Assembly (NCBI RefSeq): GCF_009914755.1
Contig: NC_060927.1
Strand: one strand, 5' to 3'
DNA: 64,000 nt
Source: the human T2T-CHM13v2.0 reference genome, Homo sapiens
The notes below the pieces were generated by a model. That model was not told the origin of the DNA and made no database searches. It saw only the letters and a program-made list of their open reading frames with translations. Shown in pieces: positions 13,510 through 56,437 of this stretch. Each line of letters begins with the position of its first letter. Within the stretch, counting starts at the first letter, position 1. Position numbers and translations under genes: made by a program.

Positions 13510-13627
13510 GTTAGAAGAAGAAGAAAAGTTTTTAAATGCTGAAAGTTACTATAAGAAAGCTTTGGCTTTGGATGAGACTTTTAAAGATGCAGAGGATGCT
13601 TTGCAGAAACTTCATAAATATATGCAG
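13510..13627 (+). CDS. TTC14: TTC14 exon 10 (TPR: [21 protein letters not shown]...KYMQ)
   Basis: tttag| acceptor, CAG|gtgatt donor, 118 nt; cumulative CDS 1290 nt = 430 codons. Confidence 0.95.
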
Positions 13628-13657
13628 GTGATTCCTTATTTCCTCTTAGAAATTTAG
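13628..13657 (+). CDS. TTC14: Alternative TTC14 C-terminus on intron-10 retention (VIPYFLLEI*, 439 aa total)
   Basis: In-frame read-through to TAG at 13655-13657; matches my recollection of a 439-aa TTC14 isoform (not verified). Confidence 0.7.
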
Positions 13658-14561
13658 TGATATTTGAAATAATGCCCAAACTTAATTTTCTCCTGAGGAA
13701 AACTATTCTACATTACTTAAGTAAGGCATTATGAAAAGTTTCTTTTTAGGTATAGTTTTTCCTAATTGGGTTTGACATTGCTTCATAGTGCCTCTGTTTT
13801 TGTCCATAATCGAAAGTAAAGATAGCTGTGAGAAAACTATTACCTAAATTTGGTATGTTGTTTTGAGAAATGTCCTTATAGGGAGCTCACCTGGTGGTTT
13901 TTAAATTATTGTTGCTACTATAATTGAGCTAATTATAAAAACCTTTTTGAGACATATTTTAAATTGTCTTTTCCTGTAATACTGATGATGATGTTTTCTC
14001 ATGCATTTTCTTCTGAATTGGACCATTGCTGCTGTGTCTGTGACATCTGGTGCTGCTCATCCCCATCCACAAACTGGAAAATGATTTCCTATGTAATCAT
14101 GCATCCAACTGGGCTGTGCTATTTTTTTAAATGGTTTGTATTTGAACATGGTGATTCCTCCTTCACTTCACCTTAACGGAATGTCTTTATTTGAATTTTA
14201 TTTGTAAAATGTGTCCTGTTTAAATTTTTCAATCTTTAAAAATAATTTTTATGTACTTTTTTTTTTTTTTAACCTTTCTTGCACTCTGGGTCATGGGTAC
14301 CACTGCAATGGCTTCCCCTTTTTTTATGGGATACCAACTGCAATATGGTCCTCAATGCTGTTCTGGCCATTTCAATGACTAATGCCAAACATCTGTATGA
14401 CTAATTTTTTTATGTTAAAAAAATACTGTTTAATGCTGGCTCTATGGTGATTTGGTTTTACTAAATTGGGTTTCTCGTTGGGGGTGGTCTTTTGAATACT
14501 GGGTTTTATATATTCTGCTATTTTTAACGTGTGGTTTTTTTCGATATCTGGGTTCTAAAAG

Positions 14562-14671
14562 AAATCTTTGGAATTAAGAGAAAAACAAGCTGAAAAGGAA
14601 GAAAAGCAGAAAACAAAGAAAATAGAAACAAGTGCAGAAAAGTTGCGTAAGCTCTTAAAAGAAGAGAAGAG
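14562..14671 (+). CDS. TTC14: TTC14 exon 11 ([20 protein letters not shown]...KEEKR)
   Basis: Weak acceptor ggttctaaaag|, donor GAG|gtaaac, 110 nt; phase joins exons 10 and 12. Confidence 0.9.
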
Positions 14672-14950
14672 GTAAACTATAATATTCAGTATTTTTAAAC
14701 TTAAGGCAACTACTGAATTGAACCCAAAGTGCCATACTGGAGGTAAAGTAAATAAAAATATGAAAGTATTTCAAGTGCCAATCAGTGACTGTTAAGAATC
14801 TTTAGCAAATATGTGTTCCATGTATTTTCTTATTAAAGAGATGAAGTGGAATTTAAGGCTAGAATTCTACAAAAAAAGAGTATCTTAGAATTAAAATATA
14901 GAATAAGTTACTTTAATTATGTTTTAGGAAGAAATATTTTAGAACTAGAG

Positions 14951-15175
14951 CAGTGGTTCTCAACTAGGGGTGGATTTATTCACCCGGGGACATTTGACAA
15001 GATGTGGAGACATTTTTGATTGCCATAACTGATAGGGTGCTACTGCATCTAGTGTATAATGGTCAGGGATGCTCTTAAACATTCTGTAATGCACAGGTCA
15101 GCTCCCACCCGCACCCCCACCCCCTACCAAGAATTATTTGGCTGAAAATACCAATAATCAGGTGAAGAAACCATG
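14951..15175. mobile_element. MER20 (hAT-Charlie) with 8-bp TSD
   Basis: cagtggttctcaac...ggagacatttttgattg; aactagag at 14943-14950 and 15176-15183. Confidence 0.85.
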
Positions 15176-15490
15176 AACTAGAGGTAGCCAAATAAAAAAG
15201 TTGAGTTCTCCTTTATGTGTTCAGTAGTCTTAAGTTTTTAAGGTAGTGTTGAAAAAAGTCTGTCTTTCAGAGATGATGGATTTGCTTACAATGATACCTG
15301 TCTGCAAGCATTTTTTCCCCCAAAAGTGCTTAATAGTAAAATTAGATCTTGTAGTAGCCGAGATTATTGTATCATTTATCTGAACCACAGCTTTTATAAA
15401 ATCTTTAAAGGAAACAAATAGGGCCCACATCTTTATGAATAATTTAGAAACATTTTTGTATATATATGACAAATGAACTGTTTTTTTTAG

Positions 15491-16403
15491 GCTAAAGAAG
15501 AAAAGAAGAAAATCAACTTCTTCTTCAAGTGTTTCTTCTGCTGATGAATCAGTGTCTTCATCATCATCCTCTTCCTCTTCTGGTCACAAAAGGCATAAGA
15601 AACATAAGAGGAACCGTTCAGAGTCTTCTCGCAGTTCCAGAAGGCATTCATCTAGGGCATCCTCAAATCAGATAGATCAGAATAGGAAAGATGAGTGCTA
15701 CCCAGTTCCAGCTAATACTTCAGCATCTTTTCTTAACCATAAACAAGAAGTGGAGAAACTACTGGGGAAGCAGGATAGGTTACAGTATGAAAAGACACAG
15801 ATAAAAGAGAAAGATAGATGCCCTCTCTCTTCATCTTCACTTGAAATACCGGATGATTTTGGAGGTAGGTCTGAAGATCCAAGAGATTTTTATAACAGCT
15901 ATAAAACCCAAGCAGGTAGTAGCAAAACAGAAAAGCCATATAAATCAGAAAGACATTTTTCCAGTAGAAGAAATTCCTCAGATTCCTTCTGTAGGAATTC
16001 AGAGGACAAGATTTATGGTTATAGGAGATTTGAAAAGGATATAGAGGGAAGAAAAGAGCACTATAGAAGGTGGGAACCAGGTTCTGTGAGGCATTCTACC
16101 TCACCAGCAAGCTCAGAATACTCTTGGAAGTCAGTTGAGAAATACAAAAAATACGCTCACTCTGGATCACGTGATTTCAGTAGACATGAGCAAAGATACC
16201 GTTTAAATACAAATCAAGGAGAATATGAAAGAGAGGACAATTATGGGGAGGATATCAAAACAGAGGTTCCAGAAGAAGATGCACTAAGTAGCAAAGAACA
16301 CTCAGAAAGCAGTGTTAAGAAAAATTTACCTCAGAATTTACTGAATATATTTAATCAGATAGCTGAATTTGAAAAAGAAAAAGGAAATAAGTCAAAAAAT
16401 TAA
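15491..16403 (+). CDS. TTC14: TTC14 exon 12 (Ser/Arg/Lys-rich tail, stop TAA)
   Basis: ttttttag| acceptor; 913 nt to stop; total CDS 2313 nt = 770 aa. Confidence 0.96.
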
Positions 16404-17000
16404 TACACCAAGGATATCGGCACCATTACACAAAATGCCATTAAGTGAAGTTTTTGGTTGTATTAGTCATAACAGTTGAGTGCAGAAATCTCTGCTTCTA
16501 AAATTATTTGTAGAGATTACAGGAAACAAATGCTTTTAAGTAAGTTTTTCTCAAATTTTGTTTCAGTTCTAGGTCCCTTGTCACAGCTTGGTTTTTAGAC
16601 TTTTTATGTATATGTTTATGTACAGTATATTACTCTTGACAGTTTGAATTTCTTCACCTAAAGATAATTCTCTGAAAGTACTGTTTCTTCATTCTATTGC
16701 GGTATATGAGAATTCCTGGGTGCATCTTATTCTGCTGTTTGAGAGAAAAATTTGTGCATTGAACACTTGGATCATTTTTATAAAAATTAATTTCATTTTC
16801 TTTTCTGTTAAATTAAAAATCGTCAGCTTTTGAAAGATTATATGTTCGAATGTTTCTTGAACACTTTTATATTTATCAGTTTAAATATTACATTTTTTGC
16901 CCAATTTTTTTTAAAATTTTTAAATGGTAGATTATATGTCTTAATTTTCCTCTAAAGCCCAATTTGATTAAAAGTGGTTTGTGAACAGTCATTGGCTTCC
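16404..17000 (+). other. TTC14: TTC14 3' UTR (end approximate)
   Basis: AT-rich region after the stop; ATTAAA candidates near 16812 and 16967. Confidence 0.55.
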
Positions 17001-54222: not shown

Positions 54223-56437
54223 CTGATAATGAGAATTATAGTGATTAATGGAATTAAATATATTGAAATGTTGTATTTATATGAACATAATAATTTAGAA
54301 ACTCAAATAAATTTGAACCCTCCACTATTTTAGCCCTTTAGAAGATAAAGCTCTTCCCACAATTTTAACAAGTCCCCAGCATTTCTTATGGTTTATTCTA
54401 TTCTAGTAGACTAGGGTAGCTTTTACGCCCGTGTCATACACCTTGACCTGTCGTCTTAATTTCATCCCATGCTACCCTAGCCTAGCAGTTGGTCATTCTA
54501 CTGATTTCCTCAAAAAATAAAGTCCACTGGAAATATGCAGCCTGTACATGCACAGAGTTTCCTAAAGTCTTGAGGGTGCTATGGGGAAGAAATCACACCA
54601 CCCAATCTCCCACCTTTCAAGCACTATACAGTGGTGAGCAGGTAAATGTTAAATGTTTAACCATCATCTCTCTAGGAGATGAGAGGCTAGGGGGAGAATC
54701 TGATTTCCACGGTATAAATACTCCCATTATGGCCAATTTCCTGCTACTAACATGATTCCACTAAAGGCAGAGTTGGGAAGAAATTCACAGAAACAGACCA
54801 TTTTGTGGTGTTTCCAACATACAGATAAAACAGACATAGGTAACCTTAAGAGTACAAAATAATAAAATATTTGGAAGTAATGAGTGCTGAGTATGTATTA
54901 CTTTTTTTGTAAACGCTATTTATTTAACTATGAGTTTATATAATCTCATTTTTAATCATAGCTGTATTTAGGAAAATTTCTAAAAATTTAACTATTGGCT
55001 CTTGTAAGCTGGTAGGAGCACTACCAGCACACTACAGGAACTACCTGTCACTCACTCTTTGCCTCCAGTTGGCCTCCACCACGTGCAGCTCTAGGAAATA
55101 GAAATGAGTCTCCCATTCCCACAGATACTCTCTCAGGAAGCAAACCTGTCTTGACCCGGAAGCCTCACAACCAATGTGTTCTAGGCTTTAAATTGATCTA
55201 CCATGCCATGATCAGTTGAAAATTATCATTTTTAAATGCTGAAATAATTTGCCTATGTGATCTTATACCCAAATAAGTATATTTTCCTTTAGCAACCAAC
55301 AAACCTGAATATGACACAAAACAAGTCTGTGACTGGCACATTGAAATCTTTGCATAAACAAGAAATATAATCTGATATTCAGTGCATTATTTTACATAAA
55401 CAATTTTCTATAGGTTTAAGATCTTCTCAAAGATTGCCTGGCAGAGTTTTAAAGCCAATGCTTCGTGGTGAATAACACAGTACATCTCCAAAAAAGATAG
55501 GGTTGGGATTTTTTCAAACAAACAAAAACCAACAGCAATGAAAAAACCCCCAAGACTATGAACACAGCCCTGCTAAAAAAACAATCGGTACACCCTGCTG
55601 CTAATATTATTAATTTTTCTAATTTAGCCAGTTCTTCAAAAATGTCTGAAGTTTTTAATTCTCTGTGATGAAAAGGTCTATTTCATATAAATTTCACAGT
55701 GTTTACAGGTTTCTGATAAGTACTAATATCATCTGTTACAGGGAATTATGCTCTTAGGAAGAAAACACCAAAACTTTTAAAACATAATGTGTAATTTGAA
55801 TATCATTCATGTCAAGATTGCAGCATGATTTTATGACTTAGAAATTTTACAGCACACTGAGGAAGCTGGATCCCATCCAAATACAAATGGAGCCAGATGA
55901 GATATAAGCCTTATATTGGGAGATTTTGCCACCATCTTCAACTACCCCTTTTTCAACCCCCCCAAACGAGTAAAAGCAAGAAGTAGAGTCAGGTCACACT
56001 TATAGTTCACACTTATAGTTCACTTTGAAGTTTTCAAAGACGAAGTGGTGCACCAGCCTTTTCCAGTTCCTCAAAAATTGGCTTTAATGCCATCAACATG
56101 CCAAAAAAGACTGAGGTAGAAGAAGGTGCCAGTAGAATTAGCAAAGTTATAGCATTTCAAAGCCCATTTACCAAAAAATTTTGCCAGAGTATAAGGGGTT
56201 AAAGAGATAGTAGATGATAAAGAAGTACAAATCAGGAATGTAGATGATGATGGGAATTTGATTACAAAAAAACAGTGATAATCATGTAGAAATCAGTTGT
56301 AAAACAAAGCCACTTTTTGAACTATTTGTATGCAATATACAAATAGATATATGGATGATGGCAGGGACATAGGTACAGTAGGCTTTGGGAAGGAATGGAA
56401 TCCAGGGCACAGTGGGGGAGCTACTTTTTTAAAAAGT

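What the first reader, a model, noticed from the sequence alone, without database searches (positions are those of the whole stretch)
13952..14561. 608-nt AG-free zone in TTC14 intron 10: candidate ultra-distant branch point or splicing sensor
Seen: after the AG at 13950-13951 there is no AG on the sense strand until the acceptor AG at 14560-14561 (checked line by line). GA and CT (antisense AG) are common and the sequence is not a simple repeat, so the depletion is strand-specific. Assuming 5% AG per position, about 30 would be expected and the chance of none is about 3e-14. The acceptor is poor (ggttctaaaAG). A branch-like TACTGAT followed by pyrimidines sits at the 5' edge (13980-13986, ~575 nt upstream). 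Established: long AG-exclusion zones mark distant branch points with scanning to the first AG and are linked to regulated splicing; typical zones are tens of nt. Inference: this is a selected RNA element that makes full-length TTC14 depend on long-range 3' splice-site selection. Because TTC14 has an S1-like RNA-binding fold, TPRs and an RS-like tail, it may be an autoregulatory sensor of a splicing activity TTC14 itself supports.
Basis: partly seen in the sequence, partly recalled or inferred. Interest (0 to 1): 0.9.

Follow-up and report, generated by a model that had tools for sequence, protein, structure and literature searches.

The report
Distant branch point in TTC14 intron
A 608-base stretch without a single AG in front of TTC14 exon 11 is real, and it lies downstream of a branch point 577 bases from the exon that published lariat sequencing had already mapped but never discussed.

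Summary
There is no AG from 13952 to 13559+1000 (13952-14559), between the AG at 13950-51 and the acceptor at 14560-61. P is 1e-11 to 1e-14. It is the longest of 35,281 AG-to-AG gaps in 264 kb, and the sequence is not repetitive.

Taggart et al. 2017, Table S1, lists it at -577 with 54 lariat reads from 23 runs. None of the 12 sites listed in this intron is in the conventional 10-60 nt position. The paper's mouse table has the same TACTG(A)T at -560 on chr3; that this is Ttc14 rests on my recall of the coordinates.

So this is an extreme member of the known class of AG exclusion zones with distant branch points, longer than PTBP1 (381) and PTBP2 (438). The zone is best explained by the first-AG rule.

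Failure to splice intron 10 gives the annotated 439-aa isoform, which lacks the Ser/Lys/Arg-rich tail. The same intron is retained in cattle.

The autoregulation idea is untested. The only support is that TTC14 protein was found in catalytic (C) spliceosomes.

No paper in the searched library discusses this intron.

The parts
13510..13627 (+). TTC14 exon 10; it ends on a codon boundary (aa 430)
   Evidence: Hub annotation.
13628..13635 (+). 5' splice site of intron 10, CAG|GTGATTCC, which lacks the consensus G at +5
   Evidence: That it is weak is my reading of the sequence, not a score.
13950..13951 (+). Last AG before the zone, 34 nt upstream of the branch A. The AG before it is at 13927, so the upstream gap is ordinary.
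13980..13986 (+). Branch-point sequence TACTGAT, branch A at 13985 (-577 from exon 11)
   Evidence: Taggart 2017 Table S1: hg19 chr3:180325911, 54 total and 34 unique reads from 23 runs, with mismatches at the branch in 12 reads. All four motif strings reported for this acceptor match the window at the computed offsets, 4 of 4.
13973..14001 (+). Minor mapped branch sites: C13973 (-589, 2 reads), A13991 (-571, 1 read), A14001 (-561, 2 reads)
13993..14016 (+). Pyrimidine tract just downstream of the branch point (17 of 20 pyrimidines at 13995-14014); the likely U2AF2 site
   Evidence: U2AF2 binding is inferred; Taggart reports U2AF2 CLIP signal at distal branch sites in general.
13952..14559 (+). 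AG exclusion zone, 608 nt
14378..14405 (+). Two ACTAAT motifs 22 nt apart inside a 16-nt direct repeat. They look like branch sites or QKI sites, but no lariat reads are listed there.
   Evidence: Table S5 lists nothing at the matching hg19 positions.
14522..14528 (+). TTTTAAC, a conventional-position branch-site candidate (A14527, -35) followed by a T7 run. No lariat reads are listed.
   Evidence: Table S5.
14560..14561 (+). Acceptor AG of exon 11 (aaAG|A), the first AG downstream of the branch point
14562..14671 (+). Exon 11: 110 nt, 77% purine, 11 GAA, 18 AG. Skipping it shifts the frame.
14577..14578 (+). Next AG, 17 nt downstream. It serves as the acceptor of a RefSeq alternative exon that starts at 14579; spliced to exon 10 it would shift the frame.
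   Evidence: Hub annotation.

Best explanation
Intron 10 of TTC14 is spliced through a distant branch point, A13985 in TACTGAT, followed at once by its pyrimidine tract and lying 577 nt upstream of exon 11. After the first catalytic step the spliceosome takes the first AG downstream of the branch. Any AG arising in the 576 nt in between would therefore become the acceptor and break the reading frame, so selection has kept the whole stretch free of AG. The long distance, the aAG acceptor and the GTGAT donor probably make the second step or intron removal slow. The result is a standing share of transcripts that keep intron 10 and encode the 439-aa isoform (S1 motif and TPRs, no Ser/Lys/Arg-rich tail). 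Shown: the zone, its statistics, the mapped branch point, and the annotated retention isoform. Inferred: that the distal lariat is the productive one, that splicing is slow, and that the isoform ratio is regulated.
For: The zone is real and far beyond chance. It is unique in the genome and not repetitive. The branch point was mapped by lariat reads: 54 reads from 23 runs of several cell types, plus reads from the run the table labels 'Mattick(SRR1049830)', with mismatches at the branch. Table S5 gives it every quality flag except 'expected position' (for the column meanings). Of the 12 sites listed in this intron, 10 lie at -589 to -542, one at -412 and one at the acceptor itself, and 0 of 12 are in the 10-60 nt class. 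The zone's 5' edge is 34 nt upstream of the branch A, and AG density just upstream is normal (18 AG in 324 nt, O/E 1.12). AA (O/E 1.63) and GG (1.80), the products of transitions from AG, are in excess over the other TTC14 introns (1.16, 1.17). The mouse table holds TACTG(A)T at -560 on chr3, inside the interval I named before searching. Retention of intron 10 gives VIPYFLLEI* at 439 aa, which matches UniProt isoform 3 as quoted in PMC7279152. A RefSeq transcript has 13510-16991 as one exon (hub table). Cattle long reads show retention of the intron between exons 10 and 11. The general rule and the class are described in Gooding 2006, Corvelo 2010 and Taggart 2017.
Against: A lariat read shows only the first step, so productive use of this branch for exon 10-11 joining is inferred from the AG-free zone, not seen. 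Taggart's minigenes for three other genes showed that distal branch points contribute only modestly, and that a second branch point in the expected zone is usually used where the exon is included. A plausible conventional site (TTTTAAC at -35 with a T7 run) exists, and sparse lariat data cannot exclude its use. The acceptor is not an outlier by crude pyrimidine measures. I could not read any orthologous sequence, so AG-freeness in other species is untested. Assigning the mouse site to Ttc14 rests on coordinates I recalled, and on one read. 'Ttc14' was not found in the 4 of 5 supplementary files of the detained-intron paper that could be searched. Predicted RNA structure gives no special bridge between branch and acceptor.
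Confidence: 0.75

Rival explanations
1. The distal branch point is a decoy or holding state. Productive splicing uses an unmapped conventional branch site near -35, and the distal lariat intermediates are mostly reversed or discarded.
For: Taggart 2017 proposes this role for distal branch points and found weak effects when they were deleted in SHMT2, APRT and LONP1 minigenes. TTTTAAC at -35 with a T7 run is present. The high lariat read count would fit an intermediate that accumulates.
Against: 0 of 12 listed sites in this intron are in the expected position, against 54 reads at -577. If the second step could not span the distance, AGs far from the branch would be harmless, and there would be no reason for exclusion over the full 576 nt.
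Confidence: 0.15
2. TTC14 protein, a component of catalytic spliceosomes, feeds back on this intron, so the long branch-to-AG distance acts as a sensor of second-step capacity. This would add to the best explanation, not replace it.
For: TTC14 gave spectra only in C complexes, alongside known late-acting proteins, and is called a biochemically identified spliceosomal component and FRA10AC1 interactor. The isoform switch removes the Ser/Lys/Arg-rich tail. PTBP1 exon 11, another long-zone exon, is autoregulated according to the abstract of PMC1940037 in the listing.
Against: No data link TTC14 level to its own splicing. Its function in the spliceosome is unknown. Four searches found no paper on this.
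Confidence: 0.15
3. The AG-free run has nothing to do with splicing: it is chance, skewed composition, a repeat, or a constraint on the other strand.
For: Gooding 2006 describes a 369-nt zone caused by a repetitive element, with only 31 nt in mouse. The zone is T-rich (43%).
Against: P is at most 1.3e-11 even with local composition. G is 17% and A 23%, and GA is near expectation. The zone has the highest sequence complexity of all 43 long runs in 264 kb. There are no repeats and no other genomic copy. There is no Rfam family; the one hit scores 22 bits against a threshold of 90. No antisense gene is annotated here. The mapped branch point sits at the zone's 5' edge.
Confidence: 0.02

Closest known systems
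PTBP1 exon 11 and PTBP2 (nPTB) equivalent exon: AG exclusion zones of 381 and 438 nt with distant branch points (Gooding et al. 2006)
   Same: There is a long AG-free stretch before a regulated exon in a gene for an RNA-processing protein, with the branch point near the 5' end of the zone (predicted at -389 for nPTB). The non-productive outcome truncates the protein or removes the transcript (abstract of PMC1940037).
   Different: The TTC14 zone is longer (608 nt, branch at -577). The annotated alternative outcome is intron retention giving a stable short isoform, not exon skipping with decay. Autoregulation is shown for PTBP1 and is untested here.
CLK1 and CLK3 exon 4, MBNL1 and HTR4 exons with mapped distant branch points (Corvelo et al. 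2010)
   Same: The branch points were mapped experimentally toward the 5' end of zones of 134-291 nt, and such zones are linked to regulated splicing.
   Different: Those zones are two to four times shorter. Corvelo scanned only the last 500 nt of each intron, so a -577 site lay outside their search.
Classical distant branch points of alpha-tropomyosin and alpha-actinin
   Same: The first AG downstream of a remote branch point with its pyrimidine tract is used as the acceptor (as summarised).
   Different: According to my recall of those papers, the branch there lies close to the upstream exon's donor and enforces mutually exclusive splicing. Here the branch is 357 nt from the donor, so that steric mechanism does not apply.
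PTPRS intron with a 1126-nt zone (Gooding et al. 2006)
   Same: It is an even longer AG-free stretch before an exon.
   Different: No branch point was mapped there in what I read; candidates lie at -1079, -829, -288 and -171, and the mouse zone is 229 nt. TTC14 has a mapped branch at the zone's 5' end, and mouse shows a similar distance.

Membership tests
Exons with AG exclusion zone and distant branch point (Gooding 2006 class) | AG-free stretch of at least 100 nt directly upstream of a verified acceptor | tested here: met
   608 nt. Gooding found 838 of 67,334 exons at 100 nt or more and 165 at 150 nt or more.
Exons with AG exclusion zone and distant branch point (Gooding 2006 class) | The next AG-to-AG interval upstream is short (first zone much longer than second) | tested here: met
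   AGs at 13927 and 13950 give a 21-nt interval; there are 18 AG in the 324 nt of intron upstream of the zone.
Exons with AG exclusion zone and distant branch point (Gooding 2006 class) | Branch-site match with an adjacent pyrimidine tract near the 5' end of the zone | tested here: met
   TACTGAT matches 5 of 7 positions of TACTAAC and fits yUnAy. A13985 is 34 nt from the bounding AG. 17 of 20 bases at 13995-14014 are pyrimidines.
Exons with AG exclusion zone and distant branch point (Gooding 2006 class) | Experimental evidence that the distant site forms lariats | tested here: met
   Published lariat reads: 54 total and 34 unique from 23 runs. The coordinate mapping was checked, 4 of 4 motifs.
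Exons with AG exclusion zone and distant branch point (Gooding 2006 class) | The zone is not the by-product of a repeat | tested here: met
Exons with AG exclusion zone and distant branch point (Gooding 2006 class) | Zone and branch point conserved in orthologues | tested here: inconclusive
   The mouse table holds TACTG(A)T at -560 with 1 read. The gene assignment rests on recalled coordinates. No orthologous sequence could be read, so AG content is unknown.
Exons with AG exclusion zone and distant branch point (Gooding 2006 class) | No branch point used in the conventional position | tested here: inconclusive
   0 of 12 listed sites are in the 10-60 nt class, but a candidate at -35 exists and lariat data are sparse.
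Exons with AG exclusion zone and distant branch point (Gooding 2006 class) | Association with alternative splicing | tested here: met
   A RefSeq exon spans 13510-16991 and an alternative exon starts at 14579 (hub table). Isoform 3 ends in VIPYFLLEI. Cattle show the same retention.
Autoregulated splicing-factor genes (PTBP1 type) | The gene product changes the splicing of its own pre-mRNA | not testable with these tools
   The only support is presence in C complexes.
Detained introns (Boutz et al. 2015) | Listed as a detained intron | tested here: inconclusive
   'Ttc14' occurs 0 times in the 4 of 5 supplementary files searched; file 5 was not searched, and the lists may use other identifiers.

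The most novel reading that the evidence does not exclude
TTC14, a protein found only in catalytic (C) spliceosomes, uses the exceptionally long 577-nt branch-to-AG distance in its own intron 10 as a gauge of second-step capacity. When late-stage spliceosome activity, or TTC14 itself, is limiting or in excess, the balance shifts between the full-length protein with its Ser/Lys/Arg-rich tail and the tail-less 439-aa isoform. This would be a feedback loop acting at exon ligation rather than at splice-site recognition.
Probability: 0.15. Interest if true: 0.8.

Novelty: new member of a known kind. Interest (0 to 1): 0.5.

Why it matters
How the spliceosome finds an AG hundreds of bases from the branch is still unsettled: linear search, folding of the RNA, or help from the downstream exon. 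Most studied cases span 130-440 nt. TTC14 intron 10 offers a natural substrate with several useful properties:

- a 577-nt span;
- a branch point supported by many lariat reads in many cell types;
- complete AG exclusion;
- a purine-rich downstream exon;
- a simple protein-level readout (a tailed or a tail-less isoform).

It also bears on variant interpretation. 242 of the 1,824 possible single-base changes in this deep-intronic stretch would create an AG and are predicted to create a new acceptor. Standard tools that look only about 50 nt upstream of an exon would miss these. Because the gene encodes a little-studied component of catalytic spliceosomes, the feedback idea is cheap to test.

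Tried and rejected
1. RNA structure bridging branch and acceptor. The 601-nt stretch folds no better than shuffles (z +0.25; 11 of 20 shuffles fold at least as well). The structure-collapsed path from A13985 to the acceptor is 17 steps (MFE) or 22 (sampled), against 27±11 and 26±6 in shuffles; 9 and 10 of 40 shuffles are as short. There is no sign of a selected bridge. One search was a script error, fixed.
2. Known RNA families. The only hit is a 22-bit match to a Listeria sRNA model with a threshold of 90 bits, which I take as chance.
3. Repeats. There are no tandem repeats and two short direct repeats. The genome search found only the locus itself and a 52-nt 85% match on another chromosome.
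4. Poly(A) signals and RBFOX sites in the zone: none.
5. Gooding 2006. TTC14 and its aliases are absent from the text and from the held part of supplement 1. That file is cut, and S2.xls cannot be read, so the exon may still be in their lists.
6. Detained-intron lists: no 'Ttc14' in the 4 of 5 files searched.
7. Pig splicing atlas and the CDK12/13 screen: nothing about this intron.
9. A Pfam scan of the spliced protein was not run. The domain layout is therefore quoted from PMC7279152 and was not tested here.
10. A second 200-kb background sample was not obtained, so the background is 264 kb.
11. Ranking the zone over all human introns and reading orthologous introns could not be done with the tools at hand.

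Full report
THE OBSERVATION

On the + strand there is an AG at 13950-51, and the next one is the acceptor of TTC14 exon 11 at 14560-61. The 608 bases between them hold 138 A, 104 G, 103 C and 263 T. No A is followed by G. GA occurs 18 times and CT 51 times.

- The chance of no AG is 1.3e-11 if bases are drawn independently at the local composition.
- It is 1.3e-14 if each of the 138 A is followed by G at the window's rate (0.207).
- It is 3.5e-15 at the rate of the other TTC14 introns.

The other 24 annotated acceptors in the window have AG-free stretches of 17-77 nt. In 264 kb, both strands, 35,281 AG-to-AG gaps, this is the longest. The runner-up is 309 nt and of low complexity. The zone has the highest trinucleotide entropy of all 43 runs of 120 nt or more.

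It is not a repeat. There is no tandem repeat and there are only two short direct repeats. A search of the whole genome finds only the locus itself and one 52-nt 85% match. No Rfam family fits.

WHAT IT IS

Supplemental Table S1 of Taggart et al. 2017 (PMC5378181; I read passages of the text and parts of the tables) gives human lariat reads in hg19. It lists chr3:180325911 (+), TACTG(A*)T, acceptor 180326488, distance -577, class 'distal'. The entry has 54 total and 34 unique reads, with mismatches at the branch, from several sources.

The reads come from 23 runs. The three runs I looked up are whole-cell total RNA from three different primary cell types. Five reads come from the run the table labels 'Mattick(SRR1049830)'. 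The table splits the 54 reads 37,1,(16) by position within the motif; 12 of the 16 at the A carry a mismatch.

Three minor sites for the same acceptor are at -589 (2 reads), -571 (1) and -561 (2). I saw 4 of the 5 rows that name this acceptor.

Taking hg19 180326488 as window 14562, all four reported motif strings match the window at the computed positions (4 of 4). The branch A is therefore 13985. TACTGAT occurs once in the intron.

The complete quality table (S5; column meanings) lists 12 sites in this intron:

- 10 lie between -589 and -542;
- 1 lies at -412;
- 1 lies at the acceptor coordinate itself;
- none carries the flag for the conventional 10-60 nt position.

The main site has every flag except that one.

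The zone begins 34 nt upstream of the mapped branch A and ends at the acceptor. AG density just upstream is ordinary: 18 in 324 nt, O/E 1.12. Within the zone, AA and GG, the products of single transitions from AG, are in excess (O/E 1.63 and 1.80, against 1.16 and 1.17 in the other TTC14 introns).

A pyrimidine tract follows the branch directly (17 of 20 at 13995-14014). This is the arrangement described for AG exclusion zones with distant branch points (Gooding et al. 2006, section read; Corvelo et al. 2010, passages). [quoted passage not shown]

OTHER SPECIES

I could not read any orthologous sequence. Taggart's mouse table (mm9; sheet names) holds chr3:33706200 (+), TACTG(A*)T, acceptor 33706760, -560, 'distal', one read with a mismatch. 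I chose the search interval beforehand from my recollection of where mouse Ttc14 lies, and no tool verified that. The same heptamer core, strand and near-identical distance make an orthologous branch point likely. Whether the mouse stretch is AG-free is unknown.

CONSEQUENCES FOR THE PROTEIN

Exon 10 ends at codon 430.

- Keeping intron 10 adds VIPYFLLEI and a stop, giving 439 aa. This is UniProt isoform 3 as quoted in PMC7279152.
- The hub table lists a RefSeq exon spanning 13510-16991.
- The short form keeps the S1 motif and the TPRs. It loses 340 residues rich in Ser, Lys, Glu and Arg (the domain layout is quoted, not tested here).
- Exon 11 is 110 nt, so skipping it shifts the frame.
- The next AG (14577-78), used by another RefSeq exon that starts at 14579, would also shift the frame.
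- Exon 11 is 77% purine, with 11 GAA and 18 AG. This is a sharp contrast with the zone and is typical of purine-rich enhancers (my reading).

MECHANISM

Most likely (0.75), the distal site is the main branch point of intron 10. The first-AG rule then explains the exclusion zone. The long span, together with the aAG acceptor and a GTGAT donor, makes removal of this intron inefficient, which sustains the short isoform.

Shown here: the zone, the mapped branch, and the isoforms. Inferred: productive use of the distal lariat, slow kinetics, and regulation.

The high lariat count fits a long-lived lariat or intermediate but does not prove one. No row among the first page of the table exceeds 51 reads, and whole runs yield only a few thousand lariat reads.

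Against this reading: Taggart's minigenes for three other genes showed only modest effects of distal branch points, and the authors suggest a holding state with a second, conventional branch point. Here a TTTTAAC at -35 with a T7 run could serve that role, although no read supports it. By crude measures the acceptor is mediocre, not exceptional. Predicted folding gives no special bridge between branch and acceptor.

AUTOREGULATION

TTC14 gave spectra only in C complexes in Schmidt et al. 2014 (one figure legend read). It is called a biochemically identified spliceosomal component and a FRA10AC1 interactor (one passage). I give it 0.15.

WHAT IS KNOWN

The class is established. Named examples are PTBP1 exon 11 (381 nt), PTBP2 (438 nt) and PTPRS (1126 nt, unverified) in Gooding 2006, and CLK1, CLK3, MBNL1 and HTR4 (134-291 nt) in Corvelo 2010. 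Corvelo scanned only the last 500 nt of introns, so this site lay beyond their search.

The TTC14 branch point is already in a public supplementary table. TTC14 is not named in Taggart's text or tables or in Gooding's text or held supplement. Searches for TTC14 with 'intron retention', 'splicing', 'spliceosom' and 'branch' found no paper that discusses this intron's branch point or AG-free zone. Supplements I could not see may bear on this: Gooding S2.xls and the cut part of S1, the cut parts of Taggart S1 and S2, and file 5 of Boutz 2015.

VERDICT

This is a real, selected, extreme AG exclusion zone tied to a mapped distant branch point. It is a new, undescribed member of a known kind. Its branch point already sits in public data, and the feedback hypothesis remains open.

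Noticed in passing
window 14368-14405: A 16-nt direct repeat places two ACTAAT motifs 22 nt apart, at -180 and -158 from exon 11. From recall, this resembles a bipartite QKI/SF1 site. No lariat reads are listed at either.
   Followed up: partly
window 14467-14555: TGGGTT occurs three times (14467, 14500, 14549) and GGGGG occurs at 14480, all in the last 100 nt before the acceptor. These G runs lie between the last T-rich stretches and the AG, as in the 'REPA' elements named in the abstract of bioRxiv 10.1101/363804.
   Followed up: no
window 13755-13780 and 14455-14480: A 26-nt direct repeat at 77% identity, spaced 700 nt, with one copy upstream of the zone and one inside it. Both copies contain ATTGGGTTT.
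   Followed up: no
TTC14 protein (literature): CDK10 and TTC14 both appear in the list of proteins seen only in C complexes. CDK10, its cyclin FAM58A and TTC14 were recurrent sensitisers to a CDK12/13 inhibitor in CRISPR screens. This hints at a shared pathway.
   Followed up: no
window 56113-56312 (- strand): A 200-nt stretch with no AG on the CCDC39 sense strand, in mid-intron and not adjacent to an annotated exon.
   Followed up: no
L009 5049-5368 (G000:C3:183261049-183261368): Low-complexity A/T-rich stretch that is AG-free for 237 nt on the + strand and 309 nt on the - strand. It is the second-longest run in the 264-kb background.
   Followed up: no
L002 (G000:C17:58908855-58908906): A 52-nt 85% match to zone positions 268-319, the T-rich part. 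It is the only other match in the genome and is probably trivial.
   Followed up: no
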